From IMG/VR virus record IMGVR_UViG_2534682295_000017: 8,139 nucleotides of DNA. One strand, 5' to 3'. Source of the DNA: a virus (Duplodnaviria; Heunggongvirae; Uroviricota; Caudoviricetes). Under the pieces are notes generated by a model. The model was not told the origin of the DNA. It was given only the letters and a program-made list of their open reading frames with translations, and searched no databases. Shown piece by piece: positions 6,076-8,139 of this stretch (position 1 is the first letter of the stretch; the number at the start of each line of letters is the position of its first letter). The translations under genes and the position numbers were made by a program.

Positions 6076-6355
6076 CGCGATAACGGTCAAAAATTATGGC
6101 GCTGACACTTTTGTGCCACTGGAGATGACTGTACCTAAGTTCAGGGGAGAAGAACACGTCCGGTGGGATGGTCGGGCCAGATTTAAAGGGCAGGTCATGG
6201 CTCCAGCCTGTACGCTGGCAATGGAGGCTGCCTGGCGGGAAATTGATATGGGAACCACGCCACTCAGGGATTTACTGCCGGTCCAGAGAATAAATTCCTG
6301 TTACGGTTACACCACTGTGATCTTGCAAGTGCAGGAAAGTAGGTCTACACGGTAA
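6044..6355 (+). pseudogene. possible remnant of a fimbrial major-subunit gene (N-terminal conserved block only)
   Basis: The translated segment RARFKGQVMAPACTLAMEAAWREIDMGTTPLRDL parallels the conserved N-terminal block of type 1 fimbrial subunits (FimA TVHFKGEVVNAACAV...VQLGQVRTASL). There is no signal peptide and the downstream sequence diverges. Confidence 0.3.
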
Positions 6356-6581
6356 CGCGAGTGCGTGTAACTTTTGATGTCATTCCCGTAGAAACACCGG
6401 ACAAATTTTCGCTGACAGGTCATGCAGAAGGTATAAATCTGCAGATTATGGACAATTACGGATATCCGGCAAGAGCCGGAAAAAGCATGCCGCCTCTAAT
6501 TCTCAGTGGAAGATGGACTTGATTATACTCATTGCATTGTCAGAAATAGTTATCCATTAAAGGCTGGCTATTCCAAACAGG

Positions 6582-6609
6582 ATGTTGATTACAAAAATGT
6601 AATCAACAT
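6582..6609. promoter_or_regulatory. 12-bp perfect inverted repeat, candidate operator upstream of the binding-protein gene
   Basis: ATGTTGATTACA-aaaa-TGTAATCAACAT lies in an AT-rich region about 165 bp upstream of the ATG at 6774. A TATAAT hexamer sits at 6636-6641. Confidence 0.35.
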
Positions 6610-6773
6610 GTAAGGTTTATACTCTTCAATATGCGTATAATTTTCCTTATTTTGTTGACTTTAAATAACAAGCTATGCACGAGGTAAAGTCGGATAAGTT
6701 TATCTGGATGTAATATATATTATTTGTAGTGTTTATAACTTTATTTCATGATAACCAATAAAAGGAGTTTTTT

Positions 6774-7532
6774 ATGAGGAACATAATGGCAGGTTTTTTA
6801 ATATTCCTGTCTTCTGCTGCTTATGCTGATATCAATCTGTATGGTCCTGGTGGCCCGCATACAGCCTTGCTTGATGCAGCCAAACTTTATGCCGAAAAAA
6901 CAGGTATTATAGTGAACGTTCATTACGGCCCACAGAACAAATGGAATGAAGATGCCAAAAAAAATGCAGATATCTTGTTTGGCGCATCAGAACAATCTGC
7001 TCTGGCTATCATTCGGGACCATAAAGACAGCTTCAGTGAAAAAGATATTCAGCCTCTTTATCTGCGAAAAAGTATTTTACTGGTAAAGAAAGGTAATCCT
7101 AAAAATATCCGGAGTATTGACGACCTGACCAGACCTGGGATTGGCGTAATTGTTAATGATGGTGGTGGTACCAGTAATACATCAGGCACTGGCGTCTGGG
7201 AAGATATTGCCGGACGTAAAGGGAATATAGAAACTGTCGCCGCAATCCGAAAAAATATTATTTTATATGCGCCCAATAGCGGAACTGCACGTAAGGCTCT
7301 TGAGAATCAGCCTGGAGCAGATGTCTGGATAACCTGGGCTGACTGGGCAGCCAGTAATCCAGAAATTGGTGATGTCGTGGAAATAGCGCCAGACTACGTG
7401 ATATGGCGTGATATGAACATTACAGTACGTCAGGATGCAAATGATGAAACCCGTCGATTTGCAGAATGGCTACAAACCGATGAAGCGGCGCCTGCATTCA
7501 AAAAATATGGCTGGACCAGGAAAGGCACTTGA
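6774..7532 (+). CDS. secreted periplasmic substrate-binding protein, ModA-like fold, orphan
   Basis: RBS AGGAG lies 7 nt upstream. Predicted signal peptide MRNIMAGFLIFLSSAAYA with an A-Y-A cleavage motif. The mature protein shows the type 2 periplasmic binding-protein pattern seen in ModA (INLYGP..., ADILFGASEQ, C-terminal KKYGWTRK compared with ModA KRYGFTIK). No permease or ATPase gene is adjacent. Confidence 0.75.
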   Translation: MRNIMAGFLIFLSSAAYADINLYGPGGPHTALLDAAKLYAEKTGIIVNVHYGPQNKWNEDAKKNADILFGASEQSALAIIRDHKDSFSEKDIQPLYLRKSILLVKKGNPKNIRSIDDLTRPGIGVIVNDGGGTSNTSGTGVWEDIAGRKGNIETVAAIRKNIILYAPNSGTARKALENQPGADVWITWADWAASNPEIGDVVEIAPDYVIWRDMNITVRQDANDETRRFAEWLQTDEAAPAFKKYGWTRKGT

Positions 7533-7533
7533 C

Positions 7534-7564
7534 ATCCTCGTCCTTCAGGACGTGGATTCTTTTT
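7534..7564 (+). terminator. intrinsic terminator of the binding-protein gene
   Basis: Stem CGTCC (7539-7543) / GGACG (7548-7552) with loop TTCA, further flanking pairs, then a T-rich run 7557-7564. Confidence 0.6.
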
Positions 7565-7590
7565 CCGGATGCCGCGCCAGCGGCATGTAG
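7565..7590. repeat. REP-like palindromic unit
   Basis: CCGGATGCCGCGCCAGCGGCATGTAGG contains the stem ATGCCGC (7569-7575) / GCGGCAT (7580-7586) and resembles the E. coli REP consensus GCCGGATGCGGCG...CCTAC. Confidence 0.3.
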
Positions 7591-7651
7591 GGGCAGCTCA
7601 CAAAACGGAAAAAATTGTACGCTAAGCCTCGCCAGGTGAACTGAATTCATT

Positions 7652-7675
7652 CCGATATGGGAATTCCCATATCGG
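7652..7675. promoter_or_regulatory. 24-bp perfect palindrome of unknown function
   Basis: CCGATATGGGAA/TTCCCATATCGG, a 12+12 inverted repeat with no spacer, centred on GAATTC, lies between the binding-protein terminator and the hok leader. Confidence 0.3.
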
Positions 7676-7779
7676 GCGAAAACGGTTTGCTGTAACGGCA
7701 GAGTTAAGTAGGATTGCTGCGGGTGCTTGAGGCTATCTGCCTCGGGCATGAACACCAACGGCAGATAGATAAAAGCCCC

Positions 7780-7867
7780 ACCCGACTATAAATCGAAGTG
7801 AGGCCCCTATATGCTCGTCACATATAGATTGCCTCTTACGGACCGAAAGGTCAAGGAGAAGCAGGCT
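7780..7867. promoter_or_regulatory. hok leader region: in-frame upstream start (mok-like), stem-loop, and candidate antisense sok promoter
   Basis: An upstream in-frame ATG at 7811 with GAGG 7 nt before it extends Hok by 19 codons. A 7-bp inverted repeat CTATATG-ctcgtca-CATATAG (7807-7827) spans that ATG. The minus strand carries TTGACC (plus 7844-7849), which could serve as the -35 of a sok-type antisense promoter. Confidence 0.35.
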
Positions 7868-8023
7868 ATGAAGCAGCAAAAGGCGATGTTAATCGCCCTG
7901 ATCGTCATCTGTTTAATCGTCATAGTGACGGCACTGGTAACGAGGAAAGACCTCTGCGAGGTACGAATCCGAACCGGCCAGACGGAGGTCGCTGTCTTCA
8001 CAGCTTACGAACCTGAGGAGTAA
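7868..8023 (+). CDS. hokD: Hok/Gef-family type I toxin (51 aa)
   Basis: MKQQKAMLIALIVICLIVIVTALVTRKDLCEVRIRTGQTEVAVFTAYEPEE is a single-TM Hok-family peptide (compare R1 Hok ...[25 protein letters not shown]) and is near-identical to RelF/HokD as I recall it. AAGGAG lies 9 nt upstream. The symbol rests on that recollection plus the Qin-like context. Confidence 0.85.
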   Translation: MKQQKAMLIALIVICLIVIVTALVTRKDLCEVRIRTGQTEVAVFTAYEPEE

Positions 8024-8093
8024 GAGACCAGGCGGGGGAGAAATCCCTCGCCACCTCTGATGTGTCAGGCATCCTCAACGCACCCGCACTTAA

Positions 8094-8118
8094 CCCGCTT
8101 CGGCGGGTTTTGTTTTTT
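8094..8118 (+). terminator. intrinsic terminator of the hok transcript
   Basis: CCCGC (8094-8098), UUCG tetraloop (8099-8102), GCGGG (8103-8107), followed by TTTTGTTTTTT (8108-8118). Confidence 0.8.
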
Positions 8119-8139
8119 CCTGGCATTCTGGTTTACAAT

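What the first reader, a model, noticed from the sequence alone, without database searches (positions are those of the whole stretch)
6360..7565. AT-rich cargo island encoding an orphan ModA-like secreted binding protein
The composition drops sharply relative to the GC-rich replication genes. Inside the AT-rich segment is a single signal-peptide-bearing type 2 periplasmic binding protein with its own promoter-like region, a 12-bp perfect palindrome (6582-6609) and its own terminator, but no cognate ABC permease or ATPase. An orphan secreted binding protein carried by a prophage next to a toxin locus could be a receptor-masking or exclusion factor, a ligand scavenger, or a decoy, rather than a transporter component.
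Basis: partly seen in the sequence, partly recalled or inferred. Interest (0 to 1): 0.65.

Follow-up and report, generated by a model that had tools for sequence, protein, structure and literature searches.

The report
Known prophage colonisation gene paa/adfO
The AT-rich segment carries paa (also called adfO), a well-known virulence-associated gene of E. coli O157:H7 prophage Sp9/CP-933O that encodes a periplasmic binding protein of the AcfC/PEB3 family, so the finding is real but already described.

Summary
GC falls from about 0.52 in the replication genes to 0.27-0.33 just upstream of a 252-aa ORF (6774-7532). That ORF has a Sec signal peptide, a 12-bp-arm palindrome at 6582-6609 and an intrinsic terminator, and no ABC partner lies nearby.

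The gene is not an unknown orphan. It is 100% identical to paa/adfO (ECs1772, Z2053) of prophage Sp9/CP-933O (O-island 57) of E. coli O157:H7. The neighbouring hok gene is the 'ckf' marker.

The protein belongs to the AcfC/PEB3/Paa family: E about 1e-81 to solved PEB3 and AcfC, model TM 0.95-0.97. ModA resembles it only at fold level (16% identity, modA model far below cut-off).

Lacking an ABC partner is typical of this family, in all nine gene contexts I checked. The gene sits in a roughly 1.02-kb cassette (6569-7592). That cassette also occurs on ETEC-type plasmids and is present in 624 of 5,426 complete E. coli genomes. Here it abuts a decayed pixH/papH-like pilin gene.

The right half of the palindrome and a TATAAT box are the best-conserved upstream elements, but the dyad symmetry itself is not conserved.

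I found no support for a phage-exclusion or decoy role. Novelty: already known. Interest: low.

The parts
6080..6568 (+). Remnant of a pixH/papH-like minor pilin gene. It is truncated at both ends, frameshifted and has an internal stop. It is filler DNA of the island, not part of the paa unit.
   Evidence: RefSeq annotates a 'fimbrial protein' pseudogene here. It is 85-86% nt identical to an intact gene of a Pix-like chaperone-usher operon and 67% aa identical to PixH of ETEC B7A. Homology to the intact gene stops at about 6568 (A3), and no signal peptide remains.
6569..7592 (+). The paa cassette: about 1.02 kb holding the upstream control region, paa, a terminator and a GC-rich hairpin. This is the block shared with plasmid-borne copies.
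   Evidence: Plasmid copies at 85-89% nt identity align only from window 6570-6580 to 7592. GC is 0.416 (computed over 6565-7597). It is present in 624 of 5,426 complete E. coli genomes.
6582..6609 (.). Perfect inverted repeat, 12-bp arms with a 4-nt AAAA spacer, 13 bp inside the left end of the cassette. Candidate regulator-binding site.
   Evidence: Read directly. 2 of 300 shuffles reach this arm length. A 15-nt invariant run at 6592-6606 is the longest in the upstream region, and the core is 96% identical against 83% for the rest of the upstream region. The left arm is degenerate in L002 and L075.
6636..6641 (+). TATAAT, candidate -10 hexamer of the paa promoter, with no good -35.
   Evidence: Invariant in five cassette copies. 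It reads TACAAT at the equivalent place in L075. The consensus scan did not call a full promoter here. The transcription start is not mapped.
6763..6767 (+). Shine-Dalgarno sequence AGGAG, 6 nt before the ATG.
   Evidence: Read directly. The ATAAAAGGA block is invariant.
6774..7532 (+). paa / adfO coding sequence (252 aa; ECs1772 in Sakai, Z2053 in EDL933). Signal peptide codons are 6774-6827.
   Evidence: 100% identical to WP_001449026.1 'AcfC family adhesin Paa'. PEB3 and AcfC match at E about 1e-81. AF2 model pLDDT is 90.8, with TM 0.97 to AcfC 4jb7.
7531..7564 (+). Intrinsic terminator: a hairpin that starts in the stop codon, followed by TTTTT.
   Evidence: Found. Other cassette copies keep a hairpin plus T-run here with different stem sequences (A2).
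7569..7586 (.). GC-rich hairpin ATGCCGC-gcca-GCGGCAT at the right end of the cassette. Function unknown.
   Evidence: Present in all five cassette copies examined. Folds.

Best explanation
The segment is a lysogenic-conversion cargo island (a 'moron') in the early region of lambdoid prophage Sp9/CP-933O (O-island 57, inserted at ompW) of E. coli O157:H7. It lies in the variable slot between the replication genes and the hok/sok locus. Its working part is a roughly 1.02-kb cassette that carries paa (= adfO).

Shown here:
- The product has a Sec signal peptide and no lipid anchor or extra domain.
- The mature 234-aa protein is entirely a two-lobed class II periplasmic-binding-protein fold.
- It is about 52-53% identical to C. 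jejuni PEB3 and V. cholerae AcfC.
- It keeps every motif that is invariant across the family (GPGGPH, SNTSGTG-WED, NSG, W-TW-DW, R212, N215).

Inferred:
- The protein is exported to the periplasm and closes around a small anionic ligand. The likely type is what its relatives bind: phosphorylated C3 acids for PEB3, D-aspartate in the AcfC crystal, and sulfated glycans for AcfC in ELISA.
- Because no dedicated permease exists in any member's neighbourhood, the liganded protein most likely acts as a sensing or colonisation factor. Options include signalling to a chemoreceptor, as proposed for AcfC-AcfB, or acting after reaching the surface.
- The published adherence defect of paa/adfO mutants would follow from this.
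- The gene is transcribed on its own in the lysogen from the AT-rich upstream region (invariant TATAAT; conserved ACAAAAATGTAATCA...GTAAGG element as a likely activator site) and is insulated by its own terminator.

The confidence given covers the identity, the family, the cargo status and the general mode of action (an exported ligand-binding colonisation factor). The sub-question of periplasmic sensor versus surface adhesin versus scavenger is open and is scored under the rivals.
For: Identity and location:
- The window is 100% identical to EDL933 and Sakai Sp9, where the gene is annotated paa/AdfO.
- The literature equates adfO (z2053) and ckf (z2054) with OI-57/CP-933O at ompW (PMC9144400; PMC8565820).

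Family:
- PDB sequence search gives PEB3 at 1.2e-81 and AcfC at 3.5e-81.
- The AF2 model matches 4jb7 (AcfC with D-Asp) and 3fj7 (PEB3 with phospholactate) at TM 0.96-0.97 and rmsd 1.1-1.4 A.
- A 31-sequence alignment has 49 invariant columns, all kept in Paa.

No ABC partner, across the family: nine contexts in Edwardsiella, Enterobacter, Francisella, Aeromonas, Salmonella plasmids, V. cholerae, Campylobacter, an unnamed metagenome taxon (L018/L019) and O157 show no ABC operon containing the gene.

Moron features:
- The slot holds other genes in related prophages.
- GC and GC3 are depressed.
- A terminator is present.
- The cassette is shared with plasmids, including one copy next to sta1 flanked by IS1.
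- Family members also sit in other prophage slots (L011, L075, L078).

Expression without prophage induction:
- ECs1772 rises more than 4-fold in early stationary phase (PMC2241611).
- It is induced in bovine rumen and rectum content (PMC8524897).

Function of relatives and of the gene itself:
- AcfC is periplasmic, binds sulfated glycans and mediates chemotaxis to mucin (PMC5976639).
- PEB3 is described as binding 3-phosphoglycerate (PMC12469816; PMC3417527).
- An adfO mutant is less adherent to HeLa cells and shows fewer secreted proteins (Ho 2008, as summarised in PMC8565820).
Against: - The ligand of Paa itself is unknown, and I could not inspect pocket residues in the solved complexes.
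- Whether Paa stays periplasmic or reaches the surface in E. coli is unresolved. The original papers call it an adhesin. Their full texts were not available here.
- No chemoreceptor or sensor partner is encoded nearby.
- The promoter is not mapped and the scan tool called none.
- The palindrome's dyad symmetry is not conserved in all copies, so its role as an operator is uncertain.
Confidence: 0.85

Rival explanations
1. Paa is a true adhesin. After Sec export it is moved to the cell surface or medium (for example by the pO157 type 2 secretion system). There it binds sulfated host glycans or mucin directly and promotes the early attachment that precedes attaching-and-effacing lesions.
For: This is the function given in databases and reviews ('AcfC family adhesin Paa'). 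paa/adfO mutants adhere less (PMC8565820; PMC10562709). Recombinant AcfC binds heparin, chondroitin sulfate and mucin in ELISA (PMC5976639).
Against: The protein is nothing but a soluble binding-protein fold, with no anchor or adhesin domain. AcfC was found in the periplasm and did not mediate cell adhesion (PMC5976639). A review of Campylobacter cell adherence and invasion questions the 'adhesin' label for the Peb proteins (PMC3417527). The adfO mutant is pleiotropic, with several secreted proteins reduced, which suggests an indirect effect.
Confidence: 0.25
2. Paa is a nutrient-scavenging binding protein. It delivers a phosphorylated or sulfated metabolite (such as 3-phosphoglycerate or PEP) to a transporter encoded elsewhere in the chromosome, giving a metabolic advantage in the gut.
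For: PEB3 is described as a transporter component for 3-phosphoglycerate-type metabolites (PMC12469816; PMC3417527). PDB complexes of PEB3 exist with phospholactate. The cleft motifs are strictly conserved.
Against: No family member examined sits in an operon with a permease or ATPase. A cassette that moves alone between phages, plasmids and species would need a compatible, pre-existing membrane partner in every host. No such partner has been reported in the papers I could read.
Confidence: 0.15
3. One reading: the secreted binding protein serves the phage as a receptor-masking or superinfection-exclusion factor, or as a decoy or ligand scavenger directed at other phages.
For: The only support is circumstantial. 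The gene lies in a prophage next to a hok/sok locus, and family members recur in prophage cargo slots.
Against: No match to any PADLOC defence model. The same cassette is common on non-phage plasmids beside enterotoxin genes. Close homologues are chromosomal colonisation factors in Campylobacter and Vibrio. The published phenotypes are host adherence and colonisation. A periplasmic anion-binding fold has no known way to block phage adsorption.
Confidence: 0.03

Closest known systems
Paa / AdfO of E. coli (porcine attaching-effacing associated protein; ECs1772, Z2053; OI-57, prophage Sp9/CP-933O)
   Same: Identical protein, and the same prophage, insertion site (ompW) and neighbours (hok = ckf).
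   Different: Nothing. This is that gene.
PEB3 of Campylobacter jejuni (PDB 2hxw, 3fj7, 3fjg)
   Same: 52-53% identity over the whole mature protein, the same fold (TM 0.95-0.96), the same invariant cleft motifs, a Sec signal peptide and no adjacent ABC genes.
   Different: PEB3 is chromosomal and N-glycosylated in Campylobacter, and its ligands (phosphorylated C3 acids) are known. Paa is carried on mobile elements and its ligand is untested.
AcfC of Vibrio cholerae (PDB 4jb7)
   Same: About 52% identity, TM 0.97, periplasmic, and no ABC partner. It is a horizontally acquired colonisation factor.
   Different: acfC lies in the VPI-1 island downstream of the chemoreceptor gene acfB and is under ToxR/ToxT control (PMC5976639). 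paa has no chemoreceptor neighbour and a different upstream region.
ModA / Sbp-CysP oxyanion-binding proteins of ABC importers
   Same: The same class II binding-protein fold, and the nearest fold neighbours after the family itself (TM 0.7-0.78). Both match the Pfam SBP_bac_11 superfamily model.
   Different: Only 12-19% identity. NCBIfam modA scores 18.3 against a cut-off of 62.5, and the sulfate-binding model 22.6 against 288. There are no modBC or cysTWA neighbours.
Phage morons (lysogenic-conversion genes with their own promoter and terminator, such as lambda bor/lom)
   Same: A separate transcription unit in a variable slot between conserved modules, with deviant GC and a benefit to the lysogen rather than to lytic growth.
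   Different: Here the same unit also circulates on plasmids, and it arrived with a fragment of a pilin gene.

Membership tests
AcfC/PEB3/Paa family of periplasmic binding proteins | Full-length sequence similarity to PEB3 and AcfC | tested here: met
   phmmer against the PDB: PEB3 1.2e-81 and AcfC 3.5e-81, covering residues 11-248. The protein is 100% identical to WP_001449026.1, 'AcfC family adhesin Paa'.
AcfC/PEB3/Paa family of periplasmic binding proteins | Two-lobed class II binding-protein fold that superposes on the solved members | tested here: met
   AF2 model with pLDDT 90.8. Foldseek: 4jb7 TM 0.97, rmsd 1.1 A; PEB3 TM 0.95-0.96.
AcfC/PEB3/Paa family of periplasmic binding proteins | Family-invariant motifs (GPGGPH, SNTSGTG-WED, NSG, W-TW-DW) | tested here: met
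   All 49 invariant columns of a 31-member alignment are present in the window protein.
AcfC/PEB3/Paa family of periplasmic binding proteins | Sec signal peptide and a soluble mature protein of about 25 kDa | tested here: met
   MRNIMAGFLIFLSSAAYA|D with no Cys lipobox. The mature PEB3 crystal chain starts at the residue aligned to D19. Cleavage itself was not tested.
AcfC/PEB3/Paa family of periplasmic binding proteins | Stand-alone gene without cognate ABC permease or ATPase | tested here: met
   None within 26 kb around the gene. None in an operon with homologues in eight other contexts.
AcfC/PEB3/Paa family of periplasmic binding proteins | Contribution to adherence or intestinal colonisation | not testable with these tools
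   Known only from the literature, as summarised in PMC8565820 and PMC10562709.
ModA molybdate-binding protein | Score above the cut-off of the modA equivalog model TIGR01256 | tested here: not met
   18.3 bits against a cut-off of 62.5. PRK03537 scores 17.7 against 470.
ModA molybdate-binding protein | Linked modB and modC genes | tested here: not met
   No ABC genes in the window or in L001.
Sulfate/thiosulfate-binding protein (Sbp/CysP) | Score above the NCBIfam cut-offs | tested here: not met
   22.6 against 288, 21.5 against 155.5 and 19 against 308 bits. Only residues 93-146 match.
Phage moron (autonomous cargo unit in a prophage) | Sits in a slot whose content varies among otherwise related prophages | tested here: met
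   Related prophages carry DUF977, DUF551 or QueH genes between the DUF1627 gene and hokD.
Phage moron (autonomous cargo unit in a prophage) | Own terminator and deviant base composition | tested here: met
   Terminator at 7531-7564. GC is 0.416 against 0.52, and GC3 0.348.
Phage moron (autonomous cargo unit in a prophage) | Own promoter active in the lysogen | tested here: inconclusive
   No full consensus promoter was called. An invariant TATAAT lies at 6636-6641. Microarray and RNA-seq papers report regulated expression in uninduced cultures. The transcription start is not mapped.
Anti-phage defence / superinfection exclusion protein | Similarity to a known defence protein model | tested here: not met
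   No PADLOC hit at E of 0.01 or better.

The most novel reading that the evidence does not exclude
The 'adhesin' label may be wrong. AcfC-family proteins, Paa included, could be self-sufficient periplasmic sensors for a gut-derived anionic metabolite. They would plug into a pre-existing host chemoreceptor or sensor kinase. That would explain why a lone 1-kb cassette works after transfer between lambdoid and P2-like prophages, plasmids and species. The conserved upstream ACAAAAATGTAATCA-N4-TGTAAGG element would then be the site of a host response regulator that switches the gene on in the gut. Neither the ligand, the partner nor the regulator is known for E. coli.
Probability: 0.3. Interest if true: 0.4.

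Novelty: already known. Interest (0 to 1): 0.1.

Why it matters
[quoted passage not shown] It is a recognised adherence factor of EPEC, EHEC and porcine ETEC, so finding it in an O157 prophage window is expected. What remains open is biochemical: the ligand of Paa, where the protein ends up, and how a binding protein without a transporter promotes colonisation. The points added here are small. They are the cassette boundaries, the decayed pilin gene beside it, the conserved upstream element, and the recurrence of the family in several different prophage cargo slots. These refine the picture but do not change it.

Tried and rejected
1. ModA, WtpA or TupA identity. Rejected: the NCBIfam modA and sulfate models score far below cut-off, and ModA structures match only at fold level.

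2. The palindrome as the 3' coding end of the pilin gene, as the RefSeq pseudogene span (to 6613) suggests. Rejected: homology to the intact pixH-like gene ends at about 6568, and the rest is read-through.

3. An ancestral pilin-paa linkage. Rejected: in the two intact operons examined the pixH-like gene is followed by the usher gene, and no paa-like gene is annotated in the stretches examined.

4. The palindrome as an operator shared by a regulon. An exact 20-mer scan of 185,579 species genomes gave 14 hits. All were in unrelated phyla with no paa homologue nearby. There was no second copy in the window.

5. The palindrome upstream of distant homologues. It is absent in Salmonella plasmid, Edwardsiella, Enterobacter, Francisella, Aeromonas, Vibrio and Campylobacter loci.

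6. A transposon-like cassette with subterminal hairpins. The left end is consistent in three contexts. The right end is not common to plasmid and prophage copies, and the two hairpins are unrelated, so I did not pursue this.

7. A defence-system role. No PADLOC hits.

8. Rfam. Only sok (RF01794, 7721-7870) was found, and nothing in the paa unit.

9. Primary papers. Batisson 2003, Ho 2008, Imamovic 2010, Rangarajan 2007 and Selvaraj 2015 were not available, so their content is cited only through later open papers.
Full report
**What the window is.**
The 8,139-base window is the immunity, replication and early-cargo region of a lambdoid prophage of E. coli O157:H7. Positions 1-8117 match EDL933, Sakai and many other O157:H7 chromosomes at 100.0%. 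In Sakai the region is annotated as prophage Sp9. In strain TR01 the prophage integrase lies next to ompW.

The genes in order are:
- a CI-like repressor (2434-2841, minus strand);
- cro (2918-3145);
- a YdaT-family gene;
- a DnaT-domain replication protein and a lambda-P-like protein (Pfam);
- a DUF1627 gene (5333-5914);
- a small ORF (5911-6075);
- the segment in question;
- a hok/sok locus (Rfam sok 7721-7870; Hok Pfam 1.7e-21).

**Checking the observation.**
- GC is 0.52 in the O/P genes and 0.408 over 6360-7565. It falls to 0.273 in 6565-6773. The ORF has GC 0.439 and GC3 0.348.
- ORF 6774-7532 has a good Shine-Dalgarno sequence and a typical Sec signal peptide, MRNIMAGFLIFLSSAAYA|D, with no lipobox.
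- The palindrome ATGTTGATTACA-aaaa-TGTAATCAACAT lies exactly at 6582-6609. It is unusual: 2 of 300 shuffles reach arms of at least 12 bp, and the fold z-score is -5.0.
- A hairpin at 7531-7559 followed by TTTTT is a credible intrinsic terminator.
- No ABC permease or ATPase gene lies in the window or in 26 kb around it.

Three caveats apply. The composition drop begins near 6440. Bases 6360-6568 belong to a different object. The promoter scan called no full sigma-70 site in the 250 bp upstream of the ORF.

**What the gene is.**
The ORF is annotated in RefSeq as 'paa: AcfC family adhesin Paa' (WP_001449026.1). [quoted passage not shown] It is 100% identical to a cluster of 616 database sequences with that name.

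Reviews place adfO (z2053) and the neighbouring ckf (z2054, the hok gene at 7868-8023) in O-island 57, within prophage CP-933O inserted at ompW. They describe the two genes as always occurring together. They also describe an adfO mutant that adheres less to HeLa cells and shows fewer secreted proteins (PMC9144400; PMC8565820; PMC10562709). Eleven 'PPompW' phage records carry the segment at 99.9-100%.

**Family membership.**
- Pfam gives only the broad SBP_bac_11 model.
- The NCBIfam models for ModA (18.3 bits against 62.5) and for sulfate- and thiosulfate-binding proteins (at most 22.6 bits against cut-offs of at least 155) fail by a wide margin.
- Sequence search of the PDB gives C. jejuni PEB3 (1.2e-81) and V. 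cholerae AcfC (3.5e-81) over the whole mature protein. The next hit, a sulfate-binding protein, is at about 1e-4.
- An AlphaFold model (pLDDT 90.8) superposes on AcfC 4jb7 (TM 0.97, rmsd 1.1 A) and PEB3 (TM 0.95-0.96). ModA structures follow at TM 0.71-0.78 and 12-17% identity.

'ModA-like' is therefore right for the fold and wrong for the family. In a 31-member alignment from Enterobacterales, Aeromonas, Vibrio, Francisella, Helicobacter and Campylobacter, 49 columns are invariant. They include GPGGPH (24-29), SNTSGTG-WED (134-144), NSG (168-170) and W-TW-DW (185-191), and Paa keeps all of them. This degree of conservation argues for a conserved small-ligand cleft. PDB titles show PEB3 with phospholactate and AcfC with D-aspartate. 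Papers describe PEB3 as binding 3-phosphoglycerate. They describe AcfC as a periplasmic protein that binds sulfated glycans and mediates chemotaxis to mucin, not cell adhesion.

**The missing ABC partner is a family trait.**
Gene neighbourhoods of homologues show no member in an operon with a permease or ATPase. The contexts examined were:
- Edwardsiella and Enterobacter chromosomes;
- Francisella;
- an Aeromonas P2-like prophage;
- Salmonella IncF plasmids;
- a V. cholerae VPI-like island (beside ToxT and TagA);
- Campylobacter (beside cdtABC);
- an unnamed metagenome taxon.

In Enterobacter an ABC operon with its own binding protein ends about 690 bp upstream, but a second context for the same protein lacks it.

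**Anatomy of the island.**
Plasmid-borne paa-like genes (74 PLSDB records, 85-89% nt identity) align with the window only from about 6570 to 7592. Many are on porcine or ETEC IncF plasmids, and one lies beside the STa enterotoxin gene flanked by IS1. This defines a cassette of about 1.02 kb holding the upstream region, paa, the terminator and a GC-rich hairpin (ATGCCGC-gcca-GCGGCAT, 7569-7586) that is present in all five copies examined. The cassette occurs in 624 of 5,426 complete E. coli genomes, at 582 chromosomal and 49 plasmid places.

To its left, 6080-6568 is the remnant of a pixH/papH-like minor pilin gene. It is 85-86% nt identical to an intact gene in a Pix-like chaperone-usher operon and 67% aa identical to PixH of ETEC B7A. 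It has lost its signal peptide, carries a frameshift and a stop, and its homology to the intact gene stops at about 6568. The RefSeq pseudogene span to 6613 is only read-through, so the palindrome is not pilin coding sequence. It lies 13 bp inside the left end of the paa cassette.

To the right, lambdoid backbone sequence shared with other prophages resumes at about 7638. In related prophages the same slot, between the DUF1627 gene and hokD, holds DUF977, DUF551 or QueH genes instead.

**Conservation of the control region.**
Among five cassette copies:
- the longest invariant run upstream of the gene is CAAAAATGTAATCAA (6592-6606), which is the spacer plus the right arm;
- the palindrome core is 96% identical, against 83% for the rest of the upstream region;
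- TATAAT at 6636-6641 is invariant.

The left arm varies. The inverted repeat is 9-10 bp in two plasmids, has no arm of 7 bp or more (about 6 bp by eye) in one, and carries TTGCA in E. albertii. In a sixth, more distant prophage copy (L075, 86% aa) the left arm is lost, while ACAAAAATGTAATCA...TGTAAGGTTT and a TACAAT about 21 nt downstream remain. What is conserved is therefore not the dyad as such. It is the right arm and the following GTAAGG, that is, two TGTAA(T/G) units 11 bp apart just upstream of where a -35 would be.

Reading this as an activator site is an inference. I could not identify the factor. The element is absent upstream of more distant homologues. An exact scan of 185,579 species genomes found it only by apparent chance in unrelated phyla. 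The terminator position keeps a hairpin plus T-run in the other copies, with different stem sequences.

**Expression.**
Published transcriptomes report that ECs1772 rises more than 4-fold in early stationary phase in uninduced cultures (PMC2241611). The EDL933 gene is induced in bovine rumen and rectal contents (PMC8524897). It is not Fur-regulated (PMC4382993). This fits an independently transcribed lysogenic-conversion gene.

**Mechanism.**
Shown here:
- the gene's identity and family;
- the fold;
- the signal peptide;
- the absence of a partner;
- the cassette structure;
- the variable prophage slot.

Inferred: Paa is exported by Sec, binds a small anionic ligand in its cleft, and promotes colonisation either as a periplasmic sensor (by analogy with the proposed AcfC-AcfB pairing) or after reaching the surface. 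I favour the sensor or indirect route for three reasons. The protein has no domain beyond the binding fold. AcfC was shown to be periplasmic and non-adhesive. The adfO mutant is pleiotropic. The direct-adhesin model (about 0.25) and a scavenging role through a distant transporter (about 0.15) remain open.

There is no PADLOC match, the same cassette sits on plasmids, and chromosomal homologues exist in non-phage contexts.

**Verdict.**
The feature is an already known virulence-associated gene, so interest is low. The small additions from this analysis are the cassette boundaries, the adjacent decayed pilin gene, the conserved upstream element, and the recurrence of AcfC-family genes in several distinct prophage slots. 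Those slots are the lambdoid early region here, after tail gene L in L075, next to the integrase in L078, and between gpA and ogr of a P2-like Aeromonas prophage in L011.

Noticed in passing
window 7652-7675: A 24-bp perfect palindrome, CCGATATGGGAATTCCCATATCGG (RNA hairpin z = -4.3). It lies in lambdoid backbone just upstream of the sok/hok locus. The same stretch occurs in several copies per E. coli genome at 93-94% identity, inside ORFs annotated as hypothetical.
   Followed up: partly
window 6080-6568: A decayed pixH/papH-like minor pilin gene, truncated at both ends, with a frameshift and a stop. It is fused to the left end of the paa cassette. RefSeq extends the pseudogene to 6613, but that tail is read-through into the cassette.
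   Followed up: yes
window 7569-7586: A GC-rich hairpin, ATGCCGC-gcca-GCGGCAT, directly after the paa terminator. It is identical in all five cassette copies from prophage and plasmids. Its function is unknown.
   Followed up: partly
L011 6001-6774; L075 4001-4753; L078 1461-2207: AcfC-family genes are recurrent prophage cargo in different slots. One lies between gpA and ogr of a P2-like Aeromonas prophage, one after tail gene L of a lambdoid remnant, and one next to an integrase.
   Followed up: partly
window 6774-7532: PHROGs family phrog_11834 matches Paa at 4e-176 but is labelled 'unknown function'. Phage annotation pipelines that rely on PHROGs will miss this known virulence-associated gene.
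   Followed up: no
L005 5214-5965: The paa-like gene on E. albertii plasmid pEA26_2 splits into two tblastn segments, and no gene is listed there in PLSDB's (incomplete) gene table. It is probably a pseudogene. Its upstream element reads TTGCA instead of TTACA.
   Followed up: no
window 3129-3680: The YdaT-family gene reads as an intact 183-aa ORF in the window and is annotated as intact in Sakai (ECs_1767). RefSeq marks the corresponding gene of strain TR01 as frameshifted.
   Followed up: no
window 8118-8139: The last 22 bases are not covered by the 100%-identity O157:H7 matches. They are covered by 99.3%-identity matches in non-O157 strains. This may be a local mosaic junction or only end-trimming by BLAST.
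   Followed up: no
L022-L035: The 20-mer TGATTACAAAAATGTAATCA occurs exactly in 14 genomes of unrelated phyla (Flavobacterium, Paraglaciecola and others). My rough estimate of the chance expectation is 1-3, so this is a mild excess. None has a paa homologue nearby.
   Followed up: partly
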